Shown piece by piece: positions 13,046 to 35,789 of a stretch of 64,000 nucleotides of DNA. This stretch comes from Singulisphaera sp. PoT. GTDB taxonomy: Bacteria; Planctomycetota; Planctomycetia; Isosphaerales; Isosphaeraceae. Location of the stretch: positions 2,704,367 to 2,768,366 of the forward strand of contig NZ_CP186274.1 of NCBI RefSeq assembly GCF_049331405.1, written 5' to 3'. Position 1 is the first letter of the stretch. Every line of letters starts with the position of its first letter. The notes under the pieces are model-generated. The model did no database searches, had not been told where the DNA came from, and saw only the letters and a list, made by a program, of their open reading frames with translations. Position numbers and translations under genes: made by a program.

Positions 13046-13471
13046 TTACTCCAGGTTCAACTCGCCCTGCCGACGATCCAGCTCATCCTGCTCGCGGATG
13101 TACTGCCGCACCCGGGCCTCATCAAGGCCCACCGTGCTCACGCAATAACCCGTCGCCCAGAAATGCAGGCCCGTCATCCGGCGCTCCTTCAACAGCTCAC
13201 GATGGATCCGGACGGCGCTCTTGCCCTTCAGGAACCCGATCGTGTTCGCCACGCTATACTTGGGCGGTATGCTCAAGCACAGGTGGATGTGGTCGGGCAT
13301 CGCGTGCCCTTCCAACAGATCGATCCCGCGTTGACGGCACAATTCCCGAAGGATCGGGCCGATCTGATGCCGAAGCCTTCCGTAGAAGACTTTGCGGCGG
13401 TACTTCGGTATGATCACGACGTGGTACTTGCATTCCCACCGGACATGGGAAAGGCTCTGCCATTCGTGCAT
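13046..13471 (-). mobile_element. tnpA: IS200/IS605-family Y1 (HuH) transposase TnpA, possibly a REP-associated tyrosine transposase (RAYT)
   Basis: 141 aa; HuH motif HIHLCLSIP; catalytic Tyr region WATGYCVSTVG; size and layout are typical of TnpA_IS200. It is flanked on both sides by GC hairpins. Confidence 0.85.
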
Positions 13472-13522
13472 AGGCTCCTCCTTCCTGCCCCTCGGGGCCT
13501 TCCTGGAAGGAGGAGCCTATTT
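13472..13522. repeat. Nested palindrome GGCTCCTCCTTCC-TGCCCCTCGGGGC-CTTCCTGGAAGGAGGAGCC on the other flank of tnpA (candidate IS end or REP hairpin)
   Basis: Read directly; it shares the GCCCCTCGGGGCCTTCC core with the REP-like units on the opposite flank. Confidence 0.6.
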
Positions 13523-14065: not shown

Positions 14066-14592
14066 TGGGGGCGGGGTTCCGACGCTTCAATTGCGGGCCG
14101 GGAGGCGAGCTTCCGATGTCTGCACCTCGTCGACGTTGGTGACGTGCCGGTTCCCTTGGCTCGTTGTTCTAACTTTGCTTAGGACACGGAGCCTAATCTG
14201 TCAAACCGGTATAACGCGATCGCCAGGCGTCGAGGCGCCGAAGCTCAGGCCTTCTATCCGGTTCAGTGCGATGCCCGGTGCGACGATTCCGGAGTTTGGC
14301 TCACGTCCGATCCGTGTGGCATAATGAAAAAGACAGCGTGGATCGATCGCGGTCCACGCCTCCTCGGTGCGTATCGATCGCGAATGCGTCGCCTCATGGC
14401 TATTGGTTCCGTTGCGCGTTTTGCGGCGCCCAGTTCAACCGGAGAAACGTCGCGCGGAATGGGGAGATCGGTACTCGTCCGTTTCGATCCGATCACCTTG
14501 TGAACCTGCCACCTGTGGCGTAGATTTGAGATAACTCAGCCAAGCGCCCGTTCCGGTCCGAAAGCCGGTCTCCTTTCTTGAGAGGAACTTAC

Positions 14593-16317
14593 ATGTCCCG
14601 AACCGCGCGAATGTGGAAAGGCGTCGGGCCGTTGACGCTGGGCGGCCTGGTCCTATCCGGCGCCCTCTGCGGGGCCGCCGAACCCGCGTCGCTGCCCGAC
14701 CAGTTGAACATGCTGGGTCGCCAGGCCCTCGCCCAGGGCGAGAAGGATCACGCGGCGACGTTCTTCCGTAAAGCCCTCGCCCTCGACCCGGCGAACACCG
14801 AGGCCCGCAAGGCCCTCGCCCGTGTCGGCAAGGTCGAGAGAGTCGCCCTCCAGGATCCCGCTCCCGAAGCACCTCCCGCCGACGCGACGGTGGCCCCGGC
14901 TCCCGCACCCGCGGATGAGCCCGTCCCCGCCTCGCCCCCGCTCGAGAACGCTCCGGTTCTTGGCAATGCCCATCGGCCCCAGGCCACCATCGAAGAGGCC
15001 GAGCGCACCGCGGAAGTGATGCGGCAGCAGTTGACCGCCGACATCCGGCAGCGCGAGCAGGTCGCCCGCGATCAGGTCACGGCCGGCCAGCCCGAAGCCG
15101 CCCTCAACACCCTCCGGCTCGCCCAGACGGTGATCCGGTCCTCGACCGACGTCGCCGAGACGACCCGGAACGCCCTCGATCGCGAAGTCCAGGCCCAGAT
15201 CCTCTCGACCGTCAGGGCCGAGGAACAGATCGTCCAGGATCGCGCCGAGAAGCTCCGCGTCGAGGCCGCGGCCGAGCAACAGGTCCGCGCCCTGGATCTG
15301 CTGACCCGCAACCACGACACGGTCAGCACCATGATGATCCAGTTCGACAGCCTCATGGCGCAGGGCCAGTACAACGTGCTGTTCAACGGCGGCACCGGCG
15401 ACATCATCGCCACGACGGCCCCGTTCTACGAGGCTCGTCTGCTCGCCCAGAAGGCCCGAGCCCTGGTGCCGAACGACCCGACCCCCCGGGCCGGCGTGTT
15501 CGTCTCCTCGACGACCGGCTTCCTCGCCCAGGAGATGGCCTACGAGCAGTTGAAAGAGTTCCGGTTCATGCTGTCCATGCAGGACGCGGAGCGAGCCGCC
15601 GTTCCGTTCCCGGACACGATCACGATCGAGTACCCCGACGCCGAGATCTGGCGGACTATCTCGGAGAAGCGGATCAAGCGCTACGGCAAGGCCGTCGACC
15701 TGCTCGACCGCGACCCGAAGACGAAGAACATCATCGAGAAGCTCAATGAGCCCATCACGATGTCCTTCCCCAACGAGACGCCGTTCGAGGAAGTCCTCAA
15801 GTACATCAAAACGGCGACGACCGGGGCCAATGACTCGGGCATCCCGATCTACGTCGATCCCGTCGGCCTGCAAGAGGCCGAGAAGACGATGTCCTCGCCG
15901 GTCACGCTCGACCTCGAAGGCGTCCCCCTCAAGACGACCCTGCGGCTGATCCTCAAGCAGCTCACCCTCACCTACACGGTGAAGGACGGCATGCTGACGA
16001 TCACCTCGGAGAACGCTGAGGACACTCCGACCGAGATCCGCGTCTACCCGGTCGCCGACCTCGCCATCATCCCAATCTCCCTCATCCGCGGCGGTGGCGG
16101 TGGTGGTATGGGCGGCATGGGCGGCGGTATGGGCGGTGGCATGGGCGGCGGTGGTATGGGTGGCATGGGCGGCGGTGGTATGGGCGGCATGGGCGGCGGC
16201 ATGGGTGGTGGCGGCGGCATGGGGATGATGTCCGTCCCGCCTCGCGACCCGAATGCGGCCGATGAAGCGTCCACGCCCCCAAGCACCTCCAGCTTCGCGG
16301 AAAAAAAAAGCAGCTAG
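14593..16317 (+). CDS. Secreted protein: signal peptide, N-terminal TPR-like region, secretin/TonB-type N-terminal (STN-like) beta-domain, and a C-terminal Gly-Met-rich low-complexity tail (GGMGGMGGGMGGG…)
   Basis: The signal peptide reads MSRTARMWKGVGPLTLGGLVLSGALCGAA. The segment ITMSFPNETPFEEVLKYIKTATTGANDSGIPIYVDPVGLQEAEKTMSSPVTLDLEGVPLKTTLRLILKQLTLTYTVKDGMLTITS resembles secretin-N/STN domains. The ORF ends at TAG immediately after an A9 run. Confidence 0.75.
   Translation: MSRTARMWKGVGPLTLGGLVLSGALCGAAEPASLPDQLNMLGRQALAQGEKDHAATFFRKALALDPANTEARKALARVGKVERVALQDPAPEAPPADATVAPAPAPADEPVPASPPLENAPVLGNAHRPQATIEEAERTAEVMRQQLTADIRQREQVARDQVTAGQPEAALNTLRLAQTVIRSSTDVAETTRNALDREVQAQILSTVRAEEQIVQDRAEKLRVEAAAEQQVRALDLLTRNHDTVSTMMIQFDSLMAQGQYNVLFNGGTGDIIATTAPFYEARLLAQKARALVPNDPTPRAGVFVSSTTGFLAQEMAYEQLKEFRFMLSMQDAERAAVPFPDTITIEYPDAEIWRTISEKRIKRYGKAVDLLDRDPKTKNIIEKLNEPITMSFPNETPFEEVLKYIKTATTGANDSGIPIYVDPVGLQEAEKTMSSPVTLDLEGVPLKTTLRLILKQLTLTYTVKDGMLTITSENAEDTPTEIRVYPVADLAIIPISLIRGGGGGGMGGMGGGMGGGMGGGGMGGMGGGGMGGMGGGMGGGGGMGMMSVPPRDPNAADEASTPPSTSSFAEKKSS
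16081..16250 (+). repeat. Tandem nucleotide repeat (ggc ggc atg ggc ggt ggt atg … units) encoding a (G2-4M)n tail
   Basis: Read directly. The complementary strand yields a spurious PPPMPPP ORF. Confidence 0.8.
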
Positions 16318-17712: not shown

Positions 17713-18864
17713 TCAGAGGACCCCAGCGGTGATCTCCGAGAGGGCGGCGATGAAGGTCTCGATCTCCTCGACCGTCGTGAACGGCCCAGGGCTGAGACGC
17801 AAGGTCCCGTCCGGGAACGTCCCCAGGGCCTGGTGGGCGTAGGGCGAACAGTGCAGGCCGGGCCGGACGGCGATCTCGAAGCTCGCGTCGAGGATCGAGC
17901 CGAGGTCCTGCGGCGTGAGCGTGTCGGGGACGATCAGGGAGAGGGCCCCGACGTGCGTGGCCGGATCCCAGCGCCCGGCGATGCTCCAACCTTCGGCGGC
18001 CTCCGCCCAGGCGACCACGCGCTCGAGCAGCGAGACCTCGTGGAGCCGGAGCGAGTCGACCCCGCGCTCGGCGACCCAGGCGATGCCGGCGGCCAGGCCG
18101 GCGACCCCCAGCACGTTGGGAGTCCCCCCCTCGTAGTAGTACGGCAGGAGCGTCGGCTGCGTCTCGCTCGACGAGTCGCCGCCGGTGCCCCCTTCGCGCC
18201 AGGTGCGGAGCTTGGCCGCGCGAGGCCCGACATACAGCGCCCCGGTCCCCGTGGGACCGTAGAGGCACTTGTGGCCGGGGAAGGCGAGCAGGTCGATCGG
18301 AGTGGCCTTCAGGTCAATCGGCACGACCCCGGCTGACTGGGCGGCGTCGACGAGGAACAAGGCGCCCGACTCCCGGACGATCGGCGCGATCGCCTCGATC
18401 GGCTGGACGGTCCCGAGCACGTTGGAGGCATGCGTCAGGGCGACGAGCGTCGTCTTCGGCGTGAGTGCAGCCTTGATCGTCTCGGGGTTGAGGTAACCTC
18501 GCTCCGAGGCGACTCGCGTCAGGGTGATGACGCCGGCCTTCTCCAGCGCCCGCAGTGGGCGGCTCACCGAGTTGTGCTCGAGGTCCGACGTGATGACATG
18601 GTCGCCGGGGTTCACGCTCCCCTTGATCGCCATGTTCAGGCCGTCGGTGCAGTTGAGCGTGAAGATCCAGCGCTCGGGGGTCTCACCTCGGAAGAACTGG
18701 TTGAGCGCGTGTCGCGTGTCGTCGAGCGTACGCTCGGCCGAGACCGCCATGCGGTGCCCTGCGCGTCCGGGGTTCGCCAGGCTCGTGCGGGCGAACTTAT
18801 CCAGGGCCTGATAGACCGGCTCGGGCTTGGGGAAACTGGTCGCGGCGTTGTCGAGATAGATCAT
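17713..18864 (-). CDS. Class-V aminotransferase-fold cysteine desulfurase (Csd/SufS/IscS-like)
   Basis: PLP-lysine region FPGHKCLYGPTGTGALY; active-site Cys loop GLHCSPYA; motif MIYLDNAATSFP at the chosen start. It is the last gene of the riboswitch-controlled operon. Confidence 0.85.
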   Translation of the reverse strand: MIYLDNAATSFPKPEPVYQALDKFARTSLANPGRAGHRMAVSAERTLDDTRHALNQFFRGETPERWIFTLNCTDGLNMAIKGSVNPGDHVITSDLEHNSVSRPLRALEKAGVITLTRVASERGYLNPETIKAALTPKTTLVALTHASNVLGTVQPIEAIAPIVRESGALFLVDAAQSAGVVPIDLKATPIDLLAFPGHKCLYGPTGTGALYVGPRAAKLRTWREGGTGGDSSSETQPTLLPYYYEGGTPNVLGVAGLAAGIAWVAERGVDSLRLHEVSLLERVVAWAEAAEGWSIAGRWDPATHVGALSLIVPDTLTPQDLGSILDASFEIAVRPGLHCSPYAHQALGTFPDGTLRLSPGPFTTVEEIETFIAALSEITAGVL

Positions 18865-18991
18865 GGCAAAGAACCCCGTGAGAGCGATCCGCGGTCGAGT
18901 CGAACTCGTCTCGGCCTGGGCCCGGAGGCTCTCCCCATTCAAGGGGGGATGGCCGGGCCCGGCGCGATCCGACCTGTTCAACCCGGCCGGC

Positions 18992-20038
18992 TCAGCTCCC
19001 CACAAACTGGGCGTAGAGCGTCCGGGCCTTGGTGATGTCGTTGGTTCCCTTGATGATCGCGCGACCGTCGGGGAAGACCGTGAACTCGTGGCCTTCCGCC
19101 GCGAAGCGGAGCATGAAGTTGTTGTGCCGCACTTCGCCCAGGGGGGACAACCGGGTCGCGAGTTCGGGGAAGTTGAGCGGCTCGGCGCGTCGGGTGGCGA
19201 TCTGGACCGCGTTGCGGCCGCAGAGCGTGGTCGTGTGGGAGCCGAGAGCCCCGTCGAGCCACTCGAACTTGCGCTGACGACAGCAAGGGCAGTCCACCTT
19301 GCCGAGCAGGCCGGCCACCTTGAGACGGCGGAAGCTCCACTCCCAGATGTCGACCATGATCAGCTCGTTGTTCAGGGCGTCGGTCGCGCCGCTGAGGAGC
19401 TTGATGGCCTCGATGGCCTCGAACGAGGCGATGACCGAGACCGCGGGGCCGAGCACGCCGGCCGTCTCGCAGGTGGGGGTCATGCCCGGCGGCGGGCTCG
19501 TCTCGATCAGGCAGCGGATGCAGGGGGTCTTGCCCGGGATGATGGTCATCGTCTGACCTTCGCTCCCGATGACGCCGCCGAAGATCCAGGGCTTGTCGAG
19601 CTTCACCGCCGCGTCGTTGATGAGGTAGCGGGTCTCGAAGTTGTCGGTGCCGTCGAGGATCAGGTCGGCGTCCGAGACGAGGTCGAGGATGTTCGTGTGG
19701 TCGATGTCGGTCACGACCGACTCGATCGACACCGCGCTGTTGATCAGGCGGAGCTTGCGTGCGGCGGCCTCGGCCTTCGGGAGATTGTCCGCGACGTCCG
19801 TCTCGTCGAAGAGGATCTGGCGCTGGAGGTTGTGCGTCTCGATGAAGTCGCGGTCGACGATCCGGATGTGGCCGACGCCCGCGCGGACCAGGTGATTGGC
19901 GAGGACCGTGCCCAGGGCGCCGCAGCCGCAGATCGTGACGCGGCTCTGCATCAACTTGCGCTGACCTGCTTCTCCGAGAGCCGGGAAACGGACCTGGCGG
20001 CTGTACCGATCGAGCGGGTCTGGCGAGGCGGCGGACAT
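18992..20038 (-). CDS. E1-like adenylyltransferase of the ThiF/MoeB/MoeZ family, with a C-terminal Cys-rich extension (CPCC…C) of unknown fold
   Basis: Motifs RYSRQVRF, the nucleotide-binding loop ICGCGALGT and DRDFIETHNLQRQ; the C-terminal CxxC…CPCC zinc-site pattern is common in MoeB/MoeZ. Confidence 0.9.
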   Translation of the reverse strand: MSAASPDPLDRYSRQVRFPALGEAGQRKLMQSRVTICGCGALGTVLANHLVRAGVGHIRIVDRDFIETHNLQRQILFDETDVADNLPKAEAAARKLRLINSAVSIESVVTDIDHTNILDLVSDADLILDGTDNFETRYLINDAAVKLDKPWIFGGVIGSEGQTMTIIPGKTPCIRCLIETSPPPGMTPTCETAGVLGPAVSVIASFEAIEAIKLLSGATDALNNELIMVDIWEWSFRRLKVAGLLGKVDCPCCRQRKFEWLDGALGSHTTTLCGRNAVQIATRRAEPLNFPELATRLSPLGEVRHNNFMLRFAAEGHEFTVFPDGRAIIKGTNDITKARTLYAQFVGS

Positions 20039-20150
20039 GAGCGATTCCCTGGGCTTTGGGCCTTGCTAAGAGTCGATTCGGGTCGTTCGTATCAAATCAA
20101 ATCAAGATCACTGGACTCGAAAGGCATCAACAGGAGGTCGACGGCCGATC

Positions 20151-20423
20151 TCAGCCGCCGGCGACGGCCGGGATGATGTCGACGACGTCGCGGTCGGCGA
20201 CGGGCGTCTCGAGGTCTTCGAGGAAGCGGATGTCTTCGCTGTTCACGTAAACATTCACGTACTGCTGGAGCTCTCCGCTCGCGCTGAAGATCCGCTTGTG
20301 GAACTCGGGGTAGCGGGTGCCGAGGTCGCTGAGGATCGCGCCCACGGTGGCCCCCTGGGCCTCGACGCGGGTCTGCCCATCGGTGTGGGGGCGGAGCGGG
20401 GTGGGGATGGTGACGACGGGCAT
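20151..20423 (-). CDS. MoaD/ThiS/CysO-type sulfur-carrier protein ending in a free Gly-Gly
   Basis: About 90 aa from MPVVTIPTPL; the C-terminus reads …DIIPAVAGG* (ubiquitin-like beta-grasp with a terminal GG). The ORF could extend to 20525. Confidence 0.8.
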   Translation of the reverse strand: MPVVTIPTPLRPHTDGQTRVEAQGATVGAILSDLGTRYPEFHKRIFSASGELQQYVNVYVNSEDIRFLEDLETPVADRDVVDIIPAVAGG

Positions 20424-20673
20424 GTTGCTGAACCTTCTGGCTAGCCAGGCTAGGAAACGTTGGGGGCGAAGGAAGAGGAGAGGGGTCCGCCCTCGGACCG
20501 GCCTCGCCTTGGCCATCTCATTCATTTTATTGTACGGCAGGACCCAGCCGCTTCGGGGCGGGTCCTGCCCGTGGATGTTGCCCGTTCGCGGCGACGGGGC
20601 ATCCCGACGACGCCGGGGCTGGGCTCGCGCCCTCGCCGGTTTGGCTGCCGGCGTCGGGCGGCCTCGCTCAGGC

Positions 20674-21948
20674 TCAGGCCGTCGTGGCCGTGAGCTCGTT
20701 GGCTTCGACCCCGACCAGGGCCTCGAACTCGTCGAGCGACGGCTTGATGACGACCGGCTTGGCGATCTTGCCCAGCAAGGCCTCCTGCGTCTTCAGGCCG
20801 TTGCCCGTGATGCAGAGGACGGTCGAGCCGTCGCGATCGATCTTGCCCTGGGCGATCAACTTCTGGGCAACCGCGACGGTCACGCCGCCGGCGGTCTCGG
20901 CCCAGATCCCTTCGGTCTCGGCCAGCAGTCGCATCGCGGAGACGATCGCGTCGTCGTCCACGTCCTCGCTCCAGCCGCCCGTGTCTCGGATCAGCTTGGA
21001 GGCGAAGTAGCCGTCGGCGGGATCGCCGATGGCGAGGCTCTTGGCGATCGTGTTCGGGTTCCGGACCGGCTTGACCTTCAGGGCGTCGGTCTTGACCGTG
21101 TTCGAGATCGGGTTGCAGCCGGTGGCCTGGGCACCGTACATCTTGGTGTTGACGGGCCCTTCGATCAGGCCGAGGAGCTCCAGCTCCTTGAACGACTTGT
21201 GCAGCTTGCCGATCAGGCTGCCGCCGGCCATCGGGGCGACGACGTGGTCGGGGATCTTCCAGCCGAGGTCTTCGGCAATCTCGAAGCCCATCGACTTCGA
21301 ACCTTCGGCGTAGAAGGGGCGGAGGTTGACGTTCACGAAGCCCCAGCCGAACCGGAAGGCGATCTGCGAGCAGAGCCGGTTGACGTGGTCGTAGTTCCCC
21401 TCGATGGCGATGACCTTCGCGCCATAGATGGTCGCCCCCAGCACCTTGCCCTGCTCGAGGCCGTCGGGGATCAGGACGTAGGCCTTCAGGCCGGCCGCGG
21501 CGGCGTTGGCCGCCACGCTGCCGGCGAGGTTGCCGGTCGAGGCGCAACCGACCGTCTCGAACCCGAGCTCGACCGCCTTGGACAGCGCCACGGCGACGAC
21601 ACGATCCTTGAACGAGAGCGACGGGTGGCTGACGGCGTCATTCTTGACGTAGAGCTCGCGGACGCCCAGCGCCTCGGCGAGGCGGTCCGCCTTGATCAAG
21701 GGGGTGCAGCCGACGTGCTTGCCGACGGTCGGCTCGCCGTCAAGCGGCAGGAGCTCGCGATACCGCCACATCGTCCGGGGTCGGGCTTCGATCGCCTTGC
21801 GGGTGAAGGATCTGGCGACCGCCTCGTAGTCGTATGCGACTTCGAGAGGGCCGAAGTCCTCCGTGCAGAAGTTCAACGCTTCTTTGGGGTACAACTTGCC
21901 GCAGAGGCGACACTTCAAGCCTTGGACGAGATCTCCAGACACCGGCAA
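20674..21948 (-). CDS. Threonine-synthase-family fold-II PLP enzyme with an N-terminal zinc ribbon. Context suggests a homocysteine synthase that uses a protein thiocarboxylate (MetM-like) rather than a housekeeping ThrC.
   Basis: N-terminus has LKCRLCGKLYP…C; the PLP lysine region SLSFKDRV is present. It is the first gene after the SAM-I riboswitch. TTG/GTG start. Confidence 0.85.
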   Translation of the reverse strand: MPVSGDLVQGLKCRLCGKLYPKEALNFCTEDFGPLEVAYDYEAVARSFTRKAIEARPRTMWRYRELLPLDGEPTVGKHVGCTPLIKADRLAEALGVRELYVKNDAVSHPSLSFKDRVVAVALSKAVELGFETVGCASTGNLAGSVAANAAAAGLKAYVLIPDGLEQGKVLGATIYGAKVIAIEGNYDHVNRLCSQIAFRFGWGFVNVNLRPFYAEGSKSMGFEIAEDLGWKIPDHVVAPMAGGSLIGKLHKSFKELELLGLIEGPVNTKMYGAQATGCNPISNTVKTDALKVKPVRNPNTIAKSLAIGDPADGYFASKLIRDTGGWSEDVDDDAIVSAMRLLAETEGIWAETAGGVTVAVAQKLIAQGKIDRDGSTVLCITGNGLKTQEALLGKIAKPVVIKPSLDEFEALVGVEANELTATTA

Positions 21949-22139
21949 TTCTCCTGTGGTCCTCTCCGCAACCGTGGGCAGACGGCCGCGAGGCGGGACG
22001 GTGAGATAGAACGATTACCCCGAGGGATAAACGCCCCGATGCGCGATGATCCAGAACTCATGAGGGGAGACGAATGGAATGGATGAGGTAGGCCGAAGGC
22101 GAGCCGTTTTGCGATGAAAACGAAGATTCGCCGGAGGCC

Positions 22140-22276
22140 ATCTTATCTATCCCATCGGCACATCGAGCGTTTCAGCGTCGATGCACTGGGCAGGAGTTAG
22201 CACCAGCATTCACCCGATGGTGAACCGGTTGCTGTGGCGTCGCAGGGCCCGTCCCTCAGCCACTCTGGATAAGATG
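22140..22276 (-). ncRNA. SAM-I (S-box) riboswitch in the leader of the thrC-like/moaD-like/moeB-like/csd operon
   Basis: The minus-strand read TCTTATCCAGAGTGGCTGAGGGACGGGCCCTGCGACGCCACAGCAACCGG…GGTGCTAACTCCTGC…GATAGATAAGA matches the S-box conserved blocks (CTTATCaAGAG.GG.GGAGGGAC.GGCCC..GA..CC..GCAACC / GGTGCTAA.TCCTGC / AGATaAG). Further downstream there is a large imperfect palindrome (expression platform) and then the TTG/GTG start at 21948. Confidence 0.7.
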
Positions 22277-22371
22277 CGCACCAAATTGTGATCGAGTTAC
22301 TGTATGCCGATGGGCGACCATCCGTCAAGTCCCCGCGATGCGGGACCGCCGAATTTCAACGCTCATACACA

Positions 22372-30448: not shown

Positions 30449-33400
30449 ATGCACCGCGAATATCATCCCGCCGACATGCACCGACTGCGTGCGCACGCCT
30501 TCGAGGGAGAAGGCGGAGGGGAACCCGGCCGTCGCGAGGATCATCGGGGCCTCTATGCCCTGACGACCATCCTGGGGTTGCTGATCGGCGGGGACATCCT
30601 CTTCGCGTACCTCGGCCTGGAGTCCTGGAGGGCCCCGGCGGGCATCTCGCTGGTCAAGGCCGCCGCGATCCTGGGGGGGATCCGCATCGTCTACGGGGCC
30701 CTTGAGGCCCTCGCCCAGAAGCGCATCGGCGCCGATCTCGCGCTGGCCCAGGCGTGCATCGCCGCGTTGGTGATCGGCCAGCCGTTCGTCGCCGCCGAGG
30801 TCGTCTTCATCGCGTTGGTGGGGGAGGTCCTTGAGGCCCTCACCTTCGAGCGGACCCAACGCGCGATCCATCGCCTGCTCGATCAGGCCCCGCGCACGGC
30901 TCGAATACGCCGCGACGGCCGGGAGCACGAGATCGAGGCCCGGTATGTCGCCGAGGGGGACACGGTCATCGTCCGGCCCGGCGAGCGGATCCCGGTGGAC
31001 GGGCCGGTCCTCGTCGGGCGATCCTCCGTGGACCAGGCGGCGCTCACGGGGGAGTCGCACCCGGTCGACAAGGGGGTCGGAGACCCGGCCTTCTCGGGCA
31101 CGATCAACCAGTTCGGCGTCCTGGAGATCCGGGCGGAGAAGGTCGGCCACGAAACGACCCTGGGCCAGGTGTTGCGCCTGGTAGCCGAGGCGCAGCAGCG
31201 CAAGGCTCCGATCCAGAAGACGGCCGACCGGCTCGCCGGCTACTTCCTCCCGGTCGTCGAGAGTGTCGCCGCCCTGACGCTAATTTTCGGGTACCTCCTG
31301 CGCTGGCCCGACGTCTGGATGAGGACGGTCGCCGTGCTGGTGGTGGCCTGCCCGTGTGCCCTGGTCCTGGCCACGCCGGCCGCCATCCTCGCGAGCATGG
31401 CCTGGCTGGCGCGGCATGGCATCCTCATCAAGGGGGGCGAGGCGCTCGAACGGCTGGCCGCCTGCGACACGTTCGCGTTCGACAAGACCGGCACCCTGAC
31501 ACTGGGCCGGCCCGAGGTCACGAGCCTCGTCCCGCTCGACGGCTGGACCGAGGCCGAGATCCTGACCCTCGCCGCGATCGCCGAGTCGTCGAACCCGCAT
31601 CCGCTGGCCGTGGCGATCGTCGAGGAAGCCCGTCGGCGCGGCCTGAAACCGGGGACCGCCACCGAGGTCCTCGCCCAGCCCGGGGCGGGGGTCTCGTCCC
31701 GCTGCCAGCTCGACGCCGGGGGCTCGATCGCGGTCCTCGTGGGCAATCAGCGGCTCTTGAATGAACATGCGATCGAGATTTCAAACGAGGCGGCCGACGC
31801 CCTCCAGGCCCTCGACGCCCGCGGCGATACACCGCTTTTGGTCGCGGTCGAGGGGAAGCTCGCGGGCATCCTCGGGGCGCGCGACCGGATCCGCCCCGAG
31901 GCCCAGGGGGTCGTCTCCGAGCTGAAAGCCCTGGGCTTCCGCGAGGTCGCCATCCTGACCGGCGACCGCGCCGCGGCGGCCGAGGTCGTCGCCAGGAAGA
32001 CGCAGGCCACGAGCGTCGAGGCGGGCCTGCTCCCCGCCGACAAGGCGCACTGGGTCCAGGAACGTCAATCGGCCGGCAAGCGCGTGGCGATGGTCGGGGA
32101 TGGGATCAACGACGCCCCGGCGCTCGCGGGGGCCCACGTCGGGATCGCCCTCGGCGGGATCGGGGCCGACCTCGCGGCCGAGGCCGGCGACTTCGTCGTG
32201 CTCGGCGAACCCCTGGCCTGGCTCCCGGAACTCGTGCAGCTCTCGCGATCGACGGTCGCCGTCATCCGCCAGAACATCCTCATCTTTGCATTCACATTGA
32301 ACGCTGTTGCGATGGGGCTGGCCGCCCTGGGGATCCTGGGGCCGGTGCCGGCGGCGATCCTGCACCAGGCGGGGTCGCTGCTCGTCCTGCTGAACGCCAT
32401 GAGGCTCCTGGCGTTCGGGGAATGGAGACGACTCAGGCCCTTCCATCGGATCAACTCGCTCCTCGAATGGATGGCAAGGATCGACGACCGCCTCGATCCG
32501 ACGGATTACCTGGGTCGCCTGCTCTCGCACTGGCGAGGTTTCGTCGCCCTGATGGTTGCAGTGCTAATCGCCCTGGGCCTGACCTCGGGCTGGACGGCCA
32601 TAGGCCCTGGCGAGGTGGGGCTCGTCCAGCGGCAGGGGCGTTACTTGCGGGCGCTGGAGCCGGGACTCCACCTGCGCTGGCCCCCGCCGTTCGAGCGCGT
32701 GGTCCGGCTCCGGCCCGATCGGCTGAGGAGCCTCGAACTCGGCTTCCGCTCGAACGAAGGAGGCGACTCGGGGCCGGTGCGGTGGGAGTCGCGGCACGAC
32801 CGAGGCGCCGTCGCCCGAGCCGAGGACGAGTCCCTCCTGCTCACGGGCGATGGCCAGCTCGTCGAGCTCGCCGCGACGGCGCAGTACCGGCTCGATACAT
32901 CAAAGCCCGAGTCGCTGCGATCCTACGCCTTCGCCATCGCCGAGCCCGACCGCGCATTGCGTCCTCTCGGCGAATCGGCGATCCGCGCGGTCGTGGGGCG
33001 TCTGACGCTCAACGATTTGCTGACCACGGGGCGACAATCCGCCGAGAAATCGGCCGTGAGCTTGCTCCAGGAGCGGGCGGATCGCTACGGCATGGGGCTG
33101 TTCATCGCGGGGGTCGAATTCCAGGATGTTCATCCCCCGCTGCCGGTGGTGGACGCCTACCGCGACGTCTCCCGGGCCGAGAGCGAACGGGCCAAGCGCG
33201 ACAACGACGGCAAGGCCTACGAGGCCAAGGTCGTCGCCGAGGCCCAAGGCCGTGCCGACGCACTCCGCAACCAGGCCCTCGCCGCGATGTCTTCGCGTGT
33301 GACCCGTGCAGACGCGGAGTCGAGCACCTTCCTCGACCTGCTCTCCGCTCGTTCGACGGCCCCCGCGCTGACCGACCTCCGGCTCTATTGGGAGCGGATC

Positions 33401-33553
33401 GAGGAGTCGCTCGCTGGCAAGTCGAAGGTCGTCACGGAGCCCGACTCCACCGGCCGACGGATCCGGATGATCCCCGACCTCCCCTTCGAGGGCCGGGCCC
33501 TCGCCCCCGAGCCTAATCCCACCCCCGACCCCTCGGCTCGGAGAACGCCATGA
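30449..33553 (+). CDS. P1B-type heavy-metal-translocating P-type ATPase fused in-frame to a C-terminal transmembrane helix plus SPFH/band-7 (HflK-like) domain
   Basis: ATPase motifs: TGES (actuator), CPC in TM6 (VACPCALVLATP), DKTGTLT, GDGINDAPAL, and a TM8 HQAGSLLVLLNAMRLL. After residue ~640 comes a new TM (FVALMVAVLIALGL) and an HflK-type SPFH domain (GPGEVGLVQRQGRYLRALEPGLHLRWPPPFERVV…). There is no N-terminal CxxC HMA domain; the N-terminus is His-rich. Confidence 0.85.
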   Translation: MHREYHPADMHRLRAHAFEGEGGGEPGRREDHRGLYALTTILGLLIGGDILFAYLGLESWRAPAGISLVKAAAILGGIRIVYGALEALAQKRIGADLALAQACIAALVIGQPFVAAEVVFIALVGEVLEALTFERTQRAIHRLLDQAPRTARIRRDGREHEIEARYVAEGDTVIVRPGERIPVDGPVLVGRSSVDQAALTGESHPVDKGVGDPAFSGTINQFGVLEIRAEKVGHETTLGQVLRLVAEAQQRKAPIQKTADRLAGYFLPVVESVAALTLIFGYLLRWPDVWMRTVAVLVVACPCALVLATPAAILASMAWLARHGILIKGGEALERLAACDTFAFDKTGTLTLGRPEVTSLVPLDGWTEAEILTLAAIAESSNPHPLAVAIVEEARRRGLKPGTATEVLAQPGAGVSSRCQLDAGGSIAVLVGNQRLLNEHAIEISNEAADALQALDARGDTPLLVAVEGKLAGILGARDRIRPEAQGVVSELKALGFREVAILTGDRAAAAEVVARKTQATSVEAGLLPADKAHWVQERQSAGKRVAMVGDGINDAPALAGAHVGIALGGIGADLAAEAGDFVVLGEPLAWLPELVQLSRSTVAVIRQNILIFAFTLNAVAMGLAALGILGPVPAAILHQAGSLLVLLNAMRLLAFGEWRRLRPFHRINSLLEWMARIDDRLDPTDYLGRLLSHWRGFVALMVAVLIALGLTSGWTAIGPGEVGLVQRQGRYLRALEPGLHLRWPPPFERVVRLRPDRLRSLELGFRSNEGGDSGPVRWESRHDRGAVARAEDESLLLTGDGQLVELAATAQYRLDTSKPESLRSYAFAIAEPDRALRPLGESAIRAVVGRLTLNDLLTTGRQSAEKSAVSLLQERADRYGMGLFIAGVEFQDVHPPLPVVDAYRDVSRAESERAKRDNDGKAYEAKVVAEAQGRADALRNQALAAMSSRVTRADAESSTFLDLLSARSTAPALTDLRLYWERIEESLAGKSKVVTEPDSTGRRIRMIPDLPFEGRALAPEPNPTPDPSARRTP

Positions 33554-33873
33554 ACGCGATCGCCCCGGCCATCCGCCTGCGATTCACCCTGGCCCAGTTG
33601 CTGTCCCTGGTCATCCTGAGCACCCTCTGCATGGCCCCGCTGATGGCCTCGCTCAAGTCGGGGAAGGGAATGCTCATCCTCGCGGCCGTCACGCTCGACG
33701 TCTTCATCGCCCCGATGATCGAGACGGTCATCGTGATGGCCTATGTCCGCTCGCCCGAGCGTCGCGATTGGATCGTCCGAGCAATCTGGGTGATCCCCGC
33801 GCTGTTCGTGGGGGCCTTCCTGACCGTCCTGGTTCCGATCCTGCTGTTCGTCAACGACCCGTTCTCGCGCTGA
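33550..33873 (+). CDS. Small polytopic membrane protein (107 aa), translationally coupled (ATGA) to the ATPase-SPFH gene
   Basis: Three predicted TM helices. Its start codon overlaps the upstream stop codon. Confidence 0.5.
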   Translation: MNAIAPAIRLRFTLAQLLSLVILSTLCMAPLMASLKSGKGMLILAAVTLDVFIAPMIETVIVMAYVRSPERRDWIVRAIWVIPALFVGAFLTVLVPILLFVNDPFSR

Positions 33874-33927
33874 GGTTTGCCTCGCGAGCCGCAACAGAAT
33901 CTGTCGAGCTTCCCCGAGACCTCCGCA

Positions 33928-34881
33928 ATGACACGCCCCTTCCGCTGGCTGACTGCCCTCATCGTGCTCGGCCTCGTCGCGCTCTTCGGTTTCCGAGGTT
34001 GGGTCATCGTCGACGAGACCGAGTACGCGGTGATCACCGACTTCGGCCGGATCGTGAAGGTCTACGGGGCGGAGCCGGGGTTGCACGCCAAATGGCCCTG
34101 GCAGTCGGTGGAGACCATCGACCGCCGACTCCAGGTGTTCGACCCGCCCCCTCGCGAGATGATCACGGGGGATAAGCGGAACCTCGAGGTCTCCAGCTAC
34201 GTCGTCTGGCGCGTGGCCGACGCCGTCCGCTTCCTACGCTCGGCGGCGACCCTCGAGACGGCGGAAGCCCGCCTCAACGAGCGGGTGACCGCCGCACTGA
34301 GTCATGCGGTAGGGAGCCGCGAACTCCGGACGCTCGCCTCCACCGATCCAAAGGTCTGGAAGCTCGACGCGATCACCGAGGAGGTCCGCACGAGCATCGC
34401 CCCGGGCGCCCGCGAGGAACTCGGGGTCGAGGTCGTCGACGTGAGGCTCCGTCGCTTCAACCATCCGACGGAAGTCCGGCCCGCGATCTTCGAGCTGATC
34501 AGGAGCGAGCGGAAGCAGGTCGCGGCGAGCCTCCGGGCCGAGGGCGAGGCCCGCTACCTCTCCCTCACGAGCCAGGCCGACCGCCAGCGCGACACCATCC
34601 TCGCCGAGGCCGAGGCGGAGGCCGAGCGGATCAGGGGCCAGGCCGAATCCGAGTCGACCCGGATCTACAACAAGGCCCACTCCCAGGACCCGAAGTTCTA
34701 CGAGTTCGTGCGGACGCTCGAGTCGTACCGGGCCTTACTCGACGAAAAGGCTACCGTCGTCCTCTCGTCCGCGAGTCCGCTGCTCCGGCTCCTGACTCAA
34801 GGGCCCTCCGAGGACCTACTCCGGGGTCCCGCCCGCGATAAGGCGGCGGTGACGCCCTCGCCGACTGAGACAAAGCCATGA
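33928..34881 (+). CDS. SPFH/band-7 protein, HflC-like
   Basis: N-terminal TM, then VIVDETEYAVITDFGRIVKVYGAEPGLHAKWPWQSVETIDRRLQVFD (HflC signature) and a coiled-coil tail. A TTG alternative start lies at 33877, directly after the upstream stop. Confidence 0.85.
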   Translation: MTRPFRWLTALIVLGLVALFGFRGWVIVDETEYAVITDFGRIVKVYGAEPGLHAKWPWQSVETIDRRLQVFDPPPREMITGDKRNLEVSSYVVWRVADAVRFLRSAATLETAEARLNERVTAALSHAVGSRELRTLASTDPKVWKLDAITEEVRTSIAPGAREELGVEVVDVRLRRFNHPTEVRPAIFELIRSERKQVAASLRAEGEARYLSLTSQADRQRDTILAEAEAEAERIRGQAESESTRIYNKAHSQDPKFYEFVRTLESYRALLDEKATVVLSSASPLLRLLTQGPSEDLLRGPARDKAAVTPSPTETKP

Positions 34882-35789
34882 GCCGGAACGTATTCCGCTG
34901 GCTCCTCGCGTCATTCGTCCTGGCGGCGATCGCCTACGGGCTGTCGGGGGTCGTCGTGGTCGCCCCCGGCGAGGTGGCCGTGGTCCGCAGGTTCGGCCGG
35001 GCGCTGGCGAGGCCCTTGCCGCCGGGTCCGCACTGGTTGCTCCCCGCGTGGATCGACCGGATCACGCGAGTCCGCACCGACACCGTGCGACGGCTCGAAG
35101 TCGGGCTCGTCGGCACGCCGGGGCCCGACGCCCTCGCCGACGACGGAGAATACATCACCGGCGACCTGAACATGCTGCGTGCGTCTGGCGTCGTGCAGTA
35201 CCGGGTATCCGACCCCATCGCGTTCACCCTCCGAGCCAAAGAGCTCGAACCGATCCTCACGCGGTTGATCGAATCGACCTTGAGCCGATCCCTGGCGCGA
35301 GTGTCCATCGACCTCGCGCTCCGGTCGGGCCGGGCCGAGATCGCCCGCGAGATGGAAGGGGAGCTCTCCCAGGCCGCCGCACGCTATGGCCTGGGGATCT
35401 CGATCCTGGGCGTGAGCCTCACCGAGGCCCGGCCCCCCGTCGAGGTCGCGCCCGACTTCGCCTCGGCCCAAGCCGCCCAGAGCGAACGCGACGGCCGGAT
35501 CCGCGAGGCCCAGACTTACGAGGCGACGGCTTTGACAGGTGCCAGGGCCTCGGCCCTGGCCACGAAGGAGAAGGCCAAATCACGGGCCGACCGCTCGCTC
35601 GCACTGGCGAAGGCCCGCGCAGCCCGTTTCGAGACGCTGCTGGCCGAGGCCTCGGGCTGGAGGCGATTGACGATCCGTCGGCTCTACCTCGACACCTTGC
35701 GAGAGCTCTGGCCGAAGGCCAAGCGCAAGATCATCACGAGCCCCGACGAGCCGGTCGACCTCAGCATCCTCGACGACACTCGTCAGTAA
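34878..35789 (+). CDS. SPFH/band-7 protein, HflK-like; start overlaps the HflC-like stop (ATGA)
   Basis: N-terminal TM, then VVAPGEVAVVRRFGRALARPLPPGPHWLLPAWIDRITRVRTD and a coiled-coil C-terminus. Confidence 0.85.
   Translation: MSRNVFRWLLASFVLAAIAYGLSGVVVVAPGEVAVVRRFGRALARPLPPGPHWLLPAWIDRITRVRTDTVRRLEVGLVGTPGPDALADDGEYITGDLNMLRASGVVQYRVSDPIAFTLRAKELEPILTRLIESTLSRSLARVSIDLALRSGRAEIAREMEGELSQAAARYGLGISILGVSLTEARPPVEVAPDFASAQAAQSERDGRIREAQTYEATALTGARASALATKEKAKSRADRSLALAKARAARFETLLAEASGWRRLTIRRLYLDTLRELWPKAKRKIITSPDEPVDLSILDDTRQ

What the first reader, a model, noticed from the sequence alone, without database searches (positions are those of the whole stretch)
17713..21948. Riboswitch-controlled operon that looks like a protein-thiocarboxylate-dependent homocysteine (methionine) pathway
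The gene order on the minus strand is: ThrC-family PLP enzyme; a ~90-aa MoaD/ThiS-like carrier that natively ends in Gly-Gly (no JAMM protease needed); a MoeB/MoeZ-like E1; a class-V cysteine desulfurase. Together these form a complete sulfur-relay module: Cys to persulfide to carrier thiocarboxylate to C-S bond formation by the PLP enzyme. A SAM riboswitch in front argues that the product feeds methionine/SAM rather than threonine or cysteine. This matches the logic of the CysO/CysM cysteine pathway of mycobacteria and, as I recall it, a ThrC-like MetM plus carrier MetO homocysteine route described in Streptomyces. If that is right, the gene annotated as threonine synthase is a homocysteine synthase acting on O-phosphohomoserine.
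Basis: inference. Interest (0 to 1): 0.8.

Follow-up and report, generated by a model that had tools for sequence, protein, structure and literature searches.

The report
Riboswitch-controlled MetM/MetO-type homocysteine operon
A planctomycete gene annotated as threonine synthase most likely makes the methionine precursor homocysteine using sulfur carried on a small protein, a route first described in Streptomyces in 2024; here the sulfur-loading enzymes sit in the same SAM-riboswitch-headed gene cluster.

Summary
On the minus strand there is a promoter-like site, a SAM-I riboswitch (22140-22275, 77 bits), a ThrC-family PLP enzyme, a 90-aa CysO/ThiS-type carrier ending in Gly-Gly, a ThiF/MoeB-type E1 and a class-V cysteine desulfurase. 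The window is Singulisphaera (Isosphaeraceae).

The ThrC-like protein belongs to a clade that is 52-90% identical internally and only 34-39% identical to canonical threonine synthases (separated in 200/200 bootstraps). It carries 24 clade-specific residues. In 73 of 80 genomes from more than 12 phyla it is followed directly by a CysO-like carrier. In 35 of 80 it is preceded by a SAM-I riboswitch. Several genomes also hold a separate canonical ThrC close by.

This matches the MetM/MetO pathway of Streptomyces albulus (Hasebe et al. 2024): O-phosphohomoserine plus carrier thiocarboxylate gives homocysteine. I could not align the S. albulus sequence directly.

- The E1 has no rhodanese domain, so it is MoeB-like, not MoeZ-like.
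- A JAMM hydrolase may still be needed to release the product, and none lies in the 64-kb window.
- Co-transcription of all four genes is unproven.

I could not test whether the genome has a second thrC.

Verdict: a new member of a known kind, with a planctomycete-specific E1 plus desulfurase add-on.

The parts
22299..22328 (-). Sigma-70-like promoter, TTGACG-18-TACAGT, ending 24 nt upstream of the riboswitch aptamer
   Evidence: Promoter scan: 1 site found against 0.2 expected. Both hexamers are conserved in Singulisphaera acidiphila.
22140..22275 (-). SAM-I (S-box) riboswitch aptamer
   Evidence: Rfam RF00162, 77.3 bits (gathering score 44.4), E=2e-16, full model 1-108. Orthologous aptamers sit upstream of the ThrC-like gene in 35/80 other genomes.
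21943..22139 (-). Leader between aptamer and start codon. The expression platform is unresolved.
   Evidence: No intrinsic-terminator-like site lies between aptamer and gene. The fold is not distinctive, z=-1.8. The SD AGGAG at 21951-21955 and the GTG context are conserved with S. acidiphila.
20674..21942 (-). ThrC-family PLP enzyme of the MetM-like clade (422 aa): predicted carrier-thiocarboxylate-dependent homocysteine synthase. It has an N-terminal C-x2-C...C-x2-D zinc-ribbon-like extension (residues ~9-35) and the PLP lysine K112 (SFKDR).
   Evidence: Tree and bootstraps. 24 signature positions. Pairwise identities. AF2 model pLDDT 85 with ThrC structures as best fold matches.
20536..20570 (-). 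G+C-rich hairpin in the spacer between the ThrC-like gene and the carrier gene. It is not followed by a T-run and its function is unknown.
   Evidence: Seen in the sequence and in the fold. Not conserved in S. acidiphila.
20151..20423 (-). CysO/MetO-like ThiS-MoaD family sulfur carrier, 90 aa, with a native C-terminal Gly-Gly
   Evidence: PF02597. Best solved relative is M. tuberculosis CysO, 3DWG_C, E=7e-24, aligned end to end including PAVAGG. 100% identical to a Singulisphaera sp. PoT protein. The C-terminal motif PA[IV]AGG is conserved in carriers next to ThrC-like genes in 73/80 genomes.
18992..20038 (-). ThiF/MoeB-type adenylyltransferase (E1), 348 aa. It has a GCGALG nucleotide loop, Zn motifs C173-x2-C176 and C250-x2-C253, and crossover-loop Cys190 (equivalent to ThiF Cys184). 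An uncharacterised C-terminal domain (residues ~254-348) carries the motifs LCGRNAVQ and DGRAIIKGT. There is no rhodanese domain.
   Evidence: PRK12475 matched over its full length, 362 bits, below the 510 cutoff. Aligned to E. coli ThiF and MoeB over residues 10-253. Motifs and conservation. The C-terminal domain has no Pfam or PDB match.
17713..18864 (-). Class-V (SufS-like, TIGR01977 family) cysteine desulfurase, 383 aa, with PLP lysine K199 (GHK) and catalytic Cys339 (HCS)
   Evidence: Aligned with archaeal/bacterial SufS-type structures, including the HK and HC motifs. Motif positions.

Best explanation
This is a MetM/MetO-type, protein-thiocarboxylate-dependent homocysteine (methionine) biosynthesis locus of a Singulisphaera-like planctomycete.

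Proposed mechanism:
1. The desulfurase takes sulfur from L-cysteine as an enzyme persulfide (Cys339).
2. The E1 adenylates the C-terminal Gly-Gly of the 90-aa carrier with ATP.
3. Persulfide sulfur is delivered to the acyl-adenylate, possibly via E1 Cys190 or the E1 C-terminal domain. After reduction this gives carrier-Gly-Gly-COSH.
4. The ThrC-like PLP enzyme binds O-phospho-L-homoserine and eliminates phosphate to form a PLP-bound vinylglycine-type intermediate.
5. Instead of adding water at C-beta, as threonine synthase does, it adds the carrier thiocarboxylate at C-gamma.
6. Hydrolysis of the resulting acyl adduct, either directly or by a hydrolase encoded elsewhere, releases L-homocysteine and regenerates the carrier.

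When SAM is abundant the SAM-I riboswitch shuts down at least the first gene.

Shown here: gene identities, motifs, clade membership, conserved linkage and riboswitch association.
Inferred: substrates, sulfur source, order of transfer steps, release step, and co-transcription of all four genes.
For: (1) Every part has a strong family assignment.

(2) The ThrC-like protein is not a canonical ThrC.
- It scores 154-205 bits against solved ThrCs. The genuine Nostoc ThrC paralogue scores 439-475 bits.
- It is 52-90% identical to clade members and 34-39% to canonical ThrCs.
- The clade separates in 200/200 NJ bootstraps.
- At 24 positions the clade is at least 90% conserved and differs from the invariant canonical residue. 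The window protein has the clade residue at all 24. Examples: the canonical GNAGN loop is AGGSL, and canonical Arg162 (Aquifex numbering) is Tyr211 with a new Arg208.

(3) Five genomes hold a second ThrC-family paralogue within about 0.3-7.5 kb of the carrier-linked gene (L026, L032, L034, L064, L067). Four are canonical short forms and L064 is a diverged Zn-ribbon form. All four tested (L026, L032, L064, L067) pass TIGR00260.

(4) A CysO-like carrier gene lies directly downstream in 73/80 genomes from more than 12 phyla, at a median gap of 81 nt. The carrier's best solved relative is CysO, which donates sulfur to the PLP enzyme CysM (PMC12910592).

(5) A SAM-I aptamer sits directly upstream on the same strand in 35/80 genomes, in S. 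acidiphila and in Actinoplanes. There is never more than one per locus.

(6) The literature describes exactly this chemistry for the S. albulus ThrC homologue MetM with MetO, with a SAM riboswitch upstream.

(7) The four-gene order ThrC-like, carrier, long E1, desulfurase is conserved in S. acidiphila despite different flanks, and in Gemmataceae and other Planctomycetota (L001, L003-L005, L007, L008, L040). L006 has the first three genes but no desulfurase within the locus. The planctomycete ThrC-like clade (window, L001, L003-L008) is monophyletic in 193/200 bootstraps.

(8) The catalytic residues are intact: K112 in the PLP enzyme; Zn cysteines and Cys190 in the E1; K199 and C339 in the desulfurase.

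(9) NIL domains, known from methionine systems, are fused to or placed next to the carrier in other phyla.
Against: - No direct alignment with the biochemically characterised S. albulus MetM/MetO was possible. The paper and the sequence are not held, so family membership rests on a transitive identity argument.
- PMC12172450 reports that the Microcystis clade member shows threonine synthase and threonine deaminase activity in vitro and did not raise methionine in vivo.
- I could not check whether Singulisphaera has a separate canonical thrC, a homoserine kinase, or other homocysteine routes.
- No JAMM/Mec hydrolase lies in the window or in any planctomycete locus, although such genes accompany the module in other phyla.
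- Intergenic gaps of 110-250 nt and a strong hairpin after the first gene leave riboswitch control of the carrier, E1 and desulfurase unproven.
- The expression platform was not identified.
- NCBIfam still scores the protein above the thrC cutoff.
Confidence: 0.75

Rival explanations
1. The ThrC-like enzyme is bifunctional or is the cell's only ThrC-family enzyme. It would make threonine with water and homocysteine with carrier thiocarboxylate from the same O-phosphohomoserine pool, with the carrier supply setting the partition.
For: The Microcystis clade member is reported to have threonine synthase activity in vitro. The protein passes the TIGR00260 cutoff. O-phosphohomoserine-binding and PLP residues shared with ThrC are conserved (shared invariant list). 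No second thrC could be looked for in this genome.
Against: A SAM OFF-switch on the only threonine synthase would starve the cell of threonine when SAM is high. Other genomes keep a separate canonical ThrC close to the carrier-linked paralogue. The 24 clade-specific substitutions include residues in the canonical phosphate and PLP loops.
Confidence: 0.1
2. It is an ordinary housekeeping threonine synthase. The carrier, E1 and desulfurase next to it serve something else, such as molybdopterin, thiamin, tRNA thiolation or SAMP-like protein conjugation.
For: Every database source names it threonine synthase. NCBIfam's best hit for the carrier is SAMP1/MoaD, 58.9 bits against a cutoff of 60. The E1 resembles B. 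subtilis-type MoeB. Gaps between the genes are large.
Against: A carrier lies directly downstream in 73/80 genomes across more than 12 phyla, which unrelated functions cannot explain. No MoaE, ThiG or TtuA-type partner lies in the cluster. The SAM riboswitch fits methionine, not threonine. The clade is distinct from true ThrCs.
Confidence: 0.05
3. The module makes cysteine or another thio-amino acid or thiol metabolite, for example from O-phosphoserine as CysM/CysO does, rather than homocysteine.
For: The carrier's closest solved relative is CysO. CysM-like PALP genes co-occur in some clusters (L020, L051). ThrC paralogues such as cysteate synthase do perform C-S chemistry on phosphoserine.
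Against: Using cysteine (via the desulfurase) as sulfur donor to make cysteine would be futile. SAM riboswitches typically govern methionine/SAM genes. The characterised homologue MetM makes homocysteine from O-phosphohomoserine.
Confidence: 0.04

Closest known systems
MetM/MetO pathway of Streptomyces albulus (Hasebe et al. 2024, Appl Environ Microbiol 90:e01247-24; summarised in the GapMind 2026 preprint and PMC12172450)
   Same: A ThrC-homologous PLP enzyme works with a small ThiS/CysO-type carrier. A SAM riboswitch lies upstream. The predicted chemistry is O-phosphohomoserine plus carrier-COSH giving homocysteine. Both are misannotated as threonine synthase. The identity pattern fits the same clade.
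   Different: S. albulus is described as using MoeZ (E1 with a sulfurtransferase function) and the hydrolase Mec, listed as separate steps. Here a rhodanese-less MoeB-type E1 with an extra C-terminal domain and a dedicated cysteine desulfurase sit in the cluster, and no Mec/JAMM gene is nearby. The carrier ends natively in Gly-Gly. The zinc ribbon is CCCD rather than CCCC. A direct sequence comparison could not be made.
CysM/CysO/Mec+/MoeZ cysteine pathway of Mycobacterium tuberculosis
   Same: A carrier thiocarboxylate attacks a PLP-bound intermediate derived from an O-phospho-amino acid. The carrier here aligns end to end with CysO (3DWG_C, E=7e-24).
   Different: The PLP enzyme there is a CysM/CysK-type cysteine synthase acting on O-phosphoserine (beta-replacement). 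Here it is ThrC-type acting on a C4 substrate (gamma-replacement). The E1 there is MoeZ with a rhodanese domain. Mec+ is part of the mycobacterial operon.
HcyS/HcyF/HcyD/MetY homocysteine pathway of Wolinella succinogenes (Krishnamoorthy and Begley 2011; cited in PMC5764234 and PMC8191291)
   Same: The product is homocysteine and the sulfur donor is a protein thiocarboxylate made by an adenylating enzyme.
   Different: The PLP enzyme there is fold-type I MetY using O-acetylhomoserine. The carrier needs JAMM (HcyD) processing. The sulfur comes from sulfide rather than from a co-encoded cysteine desulfurase (last two points from my own knowledge).
Canonical threonine synthase (ThrC; PDB 2ZSJ, 6CGQ, 1UIM, 2D1F)
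   Same: Same fold (Foldseek probability 1.0, TM about 0.82 relative to the target). The PLP lysine, the STGN loop and many core residues are shared. The likely substrate, O-phosphohomoserine, is the same.
   Different: Only 34-39% identity. The window protein has an extra ~55-aa N-terminal zinc-ribbon-like extension and 24 clade-specific substitutions, including in the GNAGN loop and the phosphate-site Arg. It differs in the linked carrier gene and the SAM riboswitch.
ThiS/ThiF and MoaD/MoeB sulfur-carrier activation with cysteine desulfurases (IscS/NifS-type)
   Same: The E1 aligns with E. coli ThiF and MoeB, including both CxxC zinc motifs and the equivalent of ThiF Cys184. A cysteine desulfurase is the ultimate sulfur source (established for ThiS and MoaD).
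   Different: The consumer of the thiocarboxylate is a PLP amino-acid synthase, not thiazole or molybdopterin synthase. The E1 carries an extra, uncharacterised C-terminal domain.

Membership tests
MetM (carrier-thiocarboxylate-dependent homocysteine synthase, ThrC homologue) | Fold-type II, ThrC-family PLP enzyme with the Schiff-base lysine | tested here: met
   PF00291 E=8e-67 and TIGR00260 283 bits. K112 lies in SFKDR. AF2 model pLDDT 85, with ThrC structures as best fold matches.
MetM (carrier-thiocarboxylate-dependent homocysteine synthase, ThrC homologue) | Groups with the characterised S. albulus MetM rather than with canonical ThrC | tested here: inconclusive
   The S. albulus sequence was not obtainable. 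Indirect evidence: the window protein is 57% identical to the Microcystis protein that PMC12172450 reports as 51.6% identical to MetM. MetM is reported as 33% identical to B. subtilis ThrC, and the window protein is 37%. The clade separates from canonical ThrC in 200/200 bootstraps.
MetM (carrier-thiocarboxylate-dependent homocysteine synthase, ThrC homologue) | Partner gene for a MetO/CysO-type sulfur carrier | tested here: met
   A 90-aa ThiS-family gene lies 250 nt downstream. The same adjacency occurs in 73/80 genomes. The Microcystis neighbour is reported as similar to metO.
MetM (carrier-thiocarboxylate-dependent homocysteine synthase, ThrC homologue) | SAM-responsive leader upstream, as reported for S. 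albulus metM | tested here: met
   RF00162, 77.3 bits, at 22140-22275. Also present in Actinoplanes L083 and in 35/80 other loci.
MetM (carrier-thiocarboxylate-dependent homocysteine synthase, ThrC homologue) | Catalyses O-phosphohomoserine plus carrier-COSH to homocysteine, and is required for methionine prototrophy | not testable with these tools
   Needs enzymology and genetics.
MetM (carrier-thiocarboxylate-dependent homocysteine synthase, ThrC homologue) | The genome also has a separate canonical ThrC and lacks, or supplements, the acyl-homoserine routes | not testable with these tools
   Only 64 kb of this genome is available. No Met or Thr genes occur elsewhere in the window.
CysO/MetO-type sulfur carrier (ThiS/MoaD beta-grasp) | ~90-aa ThiS-family protein with a C-terminal Gly-Gly available for adenylation | tested here: met
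   PF02597. Ends PAVAGG-stop. Aligned over residues 3-90 with CysO 3DWG_C, E=7e-24.
MoeZ (E1 fused to a rhodanese sulfurtransferase domain) | C-terminal rhodanese domain with a catalytic cysteine | tested here: not met
   Pfam finds only ThiF, residues 12-241. The MoeZ model NF005902 matches only residues 6-241 and scores 199 against a cutoff of 647. The C-terminal 95 aa have no Pfam or PDB match.
ThiF/MoeB adenylyltransferase (E1) | Rossmann nucleotide loop, two CxxC zinc motifs, crossover-loop cysteine | tested here: met
   GCGALG at residue 38, C173-x2-C176, C250-x2-C253 and Cys190, aligned with E. coli ThiF 1ZFN. PRK12475 is matched over its full length but below the cutoff, 362 against 510.
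Class-V cysteine desulfurase (TIGR01977 subfamily) | Score above the curated cutoff, PLP lysine, catalytic cysteine loop | tested here: met
   TIGR01977 395 bits against 377. GHK at 197-199 and HCS at 338-340, aligned with SufS-type structures. Activity on cysteine rather than selenocysteine was not tested; the SclA model scores 306 against 525.
SAM-I riboswitch (RF00162) | Score above the Rfam gathering threshold over the full model, upstream of a gene and on the same strand | tested here: met
   77.3 bits against 44.4, model positions 1-108. Ligand binding and the switching mechanism were not tested, and no terminator was found.
Canonical threonine synthase (housekeeping ThrC) | Close similarity to characterised ThrCs, including the GNAGN PLP-phosphate loop and the phosphate-site Arg | tested here: not met
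   34-39% identity. 154-205 bits against PDB ThrCs, compared with 439-475 for a true ThrC. GNAGN is replaced by AGGSL, and Arg162 (Aquifex numbering) by Tyr211. It still passes the broad TIGR00260 cutoff.

The most novel reading that the evidence does not exclude
In Isosphaeraceae, Gemmataceae and related planctomycetes the MetM/MetO module may have become a self-contained cysteine-to-homocysteine sulfur relay. This would be a protein-mediated alternative to transsulfuration that never releases sulfide.

A dedicated TIGR01977-type desulfurase would hand its persulfide to a rhodanese-less E1. The E1's uncharacterised ~95-aa C-terminal domain (conserved LCGRNAVQ and DGRAIIKGT motifs) would replace the rhodanese domain of MoeZ. 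Product release would need no JAMM hydrolase.

A further possibility not excluded here is that this enzyme is also the organism's only ThrC-family protein.
Probability: 0.3. Interest if true: 0.6.

Novelty: new member of a known kind. Interest (0 to 1): 0.4.

Why it matters
- **Annotation.** A gene that every database calls threonine synthase is most likely a homocysteine synthase, in planctomycetes and, by the same criteria, in at least a dozen other phyla. This changes predictions of methionine and threonine auxotrophy from genomes.
- **Practical markers.** The work gives usable discriminators for the MetM-like clade. They are the N-terminal zinc ribbon, AGGSL in place of GNAGN, 24 signature positions, the adjacent PA[IV]AGG carrier and the SAM-I leader.
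- **Sulfur source.** The planctomycete operon names candidate enzymes, an E1 and a cysteine desulfurase, for loading the carrier. That makes the sulfur source of this pathway directly testable.

Tried and rejected
- **Hasebe et al. 2024.** The paper is not held under its DOI or its PMC id, so I relied on three papers that cite it.
- **Streptomyces MetM sequence.** The third homologue search, seeded with the actinobacterial representative P0247, returned only Micromonosporaceae. The Actinoplanes locus it led to has the SAM-I leader but no carrier within 6 kb.
- **First genome scan.** A second thrC in Singulisphaera could therefore not be sought.
- **E1 structure.** AF2 on the single sequence failed (pLDDT 34). 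Only window sequences or homologue-search hits may be submitted, so no E1 alignment could be used. Pfam and PDB searches with the E1 C-terminal 95 aa found nothing.
- **Expression platform.** No intrinsic terminator was found here or in two low-GC relatives. The leader fold is unremarkable.
- **JAMM/Mec hydrolase.** A motif search plus Pfam on 43 window ORFs found none.
- **Genes inserted inside planctomycete clusters.** These are Uma2 endonucleases, DinB_2 proteins and one NIL protein, not a missing pathway enzyme.
- **NCBIfam.** It has no MetM-specific model, so family libraries cannot separate MetM from ThrC.
- **Rejected readings.** Housekeeping ThrC, Moco/thiamin carrier and CysM-like cysteine synthesis; see the rival explanations.

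Full report
**What is in the sequence**

The region holds four real genes on the minus strand.
- ThrC-family PLP enzyme, 20674-21942. The listed ORF starts at TTG 21948. GTG 21942 lies 8 nt after an AGGAG and gives the 422 aa seen in all close homologues.
- ThiS/MoaD-family protein, 20151-20423, 90 aa, ending PAVAGG-stop.
- ThiF/MoeB-type E1, 18992-20038, 348 aa.
- Class-V cysteine desulfurase, 17713-18864, 383 aa. It passes the TIGR01977 cutoff.

The only Rfam hit in the 64-kb window is a full-length SAM-I riboswitch at 22140-22275 on the same strand (77.3 bits against 44.4). It sits 197 nt upstream of the first gene. A TTGACG-18-TACAGT promoter-like site lies just before it and is conserved in Singulisphaera acidiphila. 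The upstream gene is alaS, which has its own terminator-like hairpin.

The carrier is 100% identical to a protein of Singulisphaera sp. PoT, and the PLP enzyme is 90-95% identical to Singulisphaera proteins. The window is therefore Isosphaeraceae.

**Is the ThrC-like protein a threonine synthase?**

All sources name it threonine synthase, and it passes the broad TIGR00260 cutoff. Several tests say it is not a canonical ThrC.
- Solved ThrCs match it only from residue ~56 onward and score 154-205 bits. The genuine ThrC of a Nostoc genome scores 439-475 bits against the same structures.
- The first ~55 residues form a zinc-ribbon-like extension, C-x2-C...C-x2-D, that the solved ThrCs lack.
- A scan of one genome per species returned 80 loci from Planctomycetota, Verrucomicrobiota, Acidobacteriota, Nitrospirota, Nitrospinota, Cyanobacteriota, Chloroflexota, Desulfobacterota, Actinomycetota and others.
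- In a neighbour-joining tree these proteins and the window protein form one clade. It separates from canonical ThrC paralogues and from other zinc-ribbon ThrC-like representatives in 200/200 bootstraps.
- Identities are bimodal: 52-90% inside the clade and 34-39% to canonical ThrCs.
- At 24 alignment positions the clade is at least 90% conserved and differs from the invariant canonical residue. The window protein has the clade residue at all 24. The canonical GNAGN loop is AGGSL, and canonical Arg162 (Aquifex numbering) is Tyr211 with a new Arg at 208.
- Five of the loci hold a second ThrC-family paralogue within about 0.3-7.5 kb of the carrier-linked gene. Four are canonical short forms and one (L064) is a diverged zinc-ribbon form. 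The two forms therefore coexist.
- An AF2 model (pLDDT 85) has the ThrC fold. No MetM structure exists in the PDB.

**Conserved context**

A ThiS-family ORF with the C-terminal motif PA[IV]AGG lies directly downstream of the ThrC-like gene in 73 of 80 loci, at a median spacing of 81 nt. The window carrier's best solved relative is M. tuberculosis CysO (3DWG_C, E=7e-24, aligned end to end). CysO is the thiocarboxylate donor for the PLP enzyme CysM (PMC12910592).

A SAM-I aptamer lies directly upstream, on the same strand, in 35 of 80 loci. The count comes from nhmmer with the conserved 5' core, and Rfam confirmed the aptamer in every such locus it was run on.
- It is also present in S. acidiphila and in Actinoplanes derwentensis (72.7 bits).
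- It is absent from the cyanobacterial, Nitrospirota and Nitrospinota loci.
- One acidobacterial locus has a SAM-II hit instead.

Other recurring neighbours point the same way.
- Short MoeB-type E1s occur in several phyla.
- Prok-JAB/JAMM hydrolases lie within 0.5-5 kb in about a dozen loci.
- CysM-like PALP genes appear in some clusters.
- NIL domains are fused to the carrier or stand next to it.

**Link to the known pathway**

[quoted passage not shown] 2024).

PMC12172450 adds three facts.
- S. albulus metM has an upstream SAM riboswitch.
- The Microcystis 'ThrC' is 51.6% identical to MetM.
- The neighbour of that Microcystis gene resembles metO.

A 2026 preprint gives 33% identity between MetM and B. 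subtilis ThrC. The Microcystis orthologue is in my clade and is 57% identical to the window protein. The window protein is 37% identical to B. subtilis ThrC. The reported numbers for MetM therefore fall in the in-clade and out-of-clade ranges respectively.

I could not obtain the S. albulus sequence. Family membership is strongly indicated but not directly demonstrated.

**What is particular to the planctomycete version**

The long E1 and the desulfurase accompany the pair only in Planctomycetota loci.
- The order ThrC-like, carrier, E1, desulfurase occurs in S. acidiphila, the L003 MAG, two Gemmataceae, L007, L008 and L040. It is sometimes interrupted by Uma2 endonuclease genes. L006 has the first three genes only.
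- The flanks differ between the window and S. acidiphila, so the four genes travel together.

The E1 has these features.
- It aligns with E. coli ThiF and MoeB over residues 10-253, with both CxxC zinc motifs and the equivalent of ThiF Cys184 at Cys190.
- It has no rhodanese domain, so it is not MoeZ-like.
- Its last ~95 residues carry conserved LCGRNAVQ and DGRAIIKGT motifs. This architecture matches NCBIfam PRK12475 over its full length but has no Pfam or PDB counterpart.

The desulfurase keeps the PLP lysine and the catalytic cysteine.

No JAMM hydrolase was found in the window or in any planctomycete locus. The native Gly-Gly end removes the need for carrier maturation. In the CysO and HcyS precedents, however, a JAMM enzyme also releases the amino acid from the carrier (my own knowledge of those systems). 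The release step here is therefore open.

**Mechanism proposed**

1. Cysteine is converted to a desulfurase persulfide.
2. The E1 adenylates the carrier, which then receives the sulfur and becomes carrier-COSH.
3. The ThrC-like enzyme eliminates phosphate from PLP-bound O-phosphohomoserine.
4. It adds the thiocarboxylate at C-gamma.
5. Hydrolysis of the adduct yields homocysteine.
6. SAM binding to the leader turns the first gene off. From my own knowledge, characterised SAM-I riboswitches are OFF switches.

The parts, motifs, linkage and clade are shown. The substrates, the sulfur source, the route of sulfur through the E1, the release step and the riboswitch's reach beyond the first gene are inferred. 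I found no terminator or clear SD-sequestering helix in the 197-nt leader. The spacers of 110-250 nt, and a strong non-conserved hairpin after the first gene, leave the operon structure unproven.

**Caveats and rivals**

- PMC12172450 reports threonine synthase and deaminase activity for the Microcystis clade member and no rise in methionine in vivo. However, methionine reversed the induction of the gene and of its metO-like neighbour.
- A bifunctional enzyme, or an enzyme that is the sole ThrC of the cell, cannot be excluded without the rest of the genome.
- A housekeeping ThrC with unrelated neighbours is contradicted by the linkage statistics and by the clade separation.
- A cysteine-forming role is illogical with a cysteine desulfurase as the sulfur source.

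**Verdict**

The system is a new member of a kind described in 2024, with a lineage-specific sulfur-loading add-on. Its main value is re-annotation across many phyla and a testable proposal for the sulfur source.

Noticed in passing
L020:11152-11784; L040:11787-12077 (also L021, L023, L025, L029, L035 by C-terminal motif): NIL domains (PF09383) recur with the ThrC-like/carrier module. They are known from MetN and from the DUF39 homocysteine pathway. In Desulfobacterota-like loci the NIL domain is fused to the C-terminus of the carrier, which would block the Gly-Gly end unless it is cleaved. In a planctomycete locus it is a separate ORF between the carrier and the E1.
   Followed up: partly
L062:11229-12296: In an Actinomycetota MAG the carrier is fused to the N-terminus of the E1 (ThiS plus ThiF in one 355-aa ORF), directly after the ThrC-like gene. 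A Prok-JAB gene lies 1.6 kb upstream.
   Followed up: partly
window 21855-21915 (residues 11-29 of the ThrC-like protein): The N-terminal zinc-ribbon-like motif is C-x2-C...C-x2-D in Planctomycetota and Verrucomicrobiota, including 119 of 120 close homologues. It is C-x2-C...C-x2-C in most other phyla. It is degenerate in Microcystis.
   Followed up: partly
L004:14452-15090; L007:14311-14922; L006:13473-13847: Uma2-family putative endonuclease genes are inserted between the E1 and desulfurase genes in three planctomycete loci, without breaking the gene order.
   Followed up: partly
window 30449-35789 (+): A P-type (E1-E2) ATPase carries a C-terminal SPFH/Band 7 domain in one 1034-aa ORF. Two further Band 7 genes follow it. 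This is an unusual fusion.
   Followed up: no
window 13046-13516 (-): IS200-like Y1 transposase (PF01797, E=3e-35), about 4 kb from the cluster.
   Followed up: no
window 14578-16317 (+): A 579-aa TPR-containing protein has a long Gly/Met low-complexity stretch (GGGGGGMGGMGGGMGGG...) near its C-terminus.
   Followed up: no
L024:8728-8801: A SAM-II (RF00521) hit, 37.5 bits and just above the gathering score, lies about 1.2 kb upstream of the ThrC-like gene in an Acidobacteriota MAG that lacks SAM-I. This suggests riboswitch class turnover at this locus.
   Followed up: no
window 20536-20570 (-): A strong G+C-rich hairpin lies in the spacer after the ThrC-like gene. It is followed by an A-rich stretch rather than a T-run and is not conserved in S. 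acidiphila.
   Followed up: partly
L051:8093-13149; L056; L081 (Nitrospirota): Extended clusters read CysM-like PALP, E1, ThrC-like, carrier, second E1, Prok-JAB. One carrier system may serve both cysteine and homocysteine synthesis there.
   Followed up: partly
L083:5852-7284 (Actinoplanes derwentensis): A SAM-I riboswitch directly precedes a clade member that has no carrier gene within 6 kb. The carrier can therefore be encoded elsewhere in Micromonosporaceae.
   Followed up: partly
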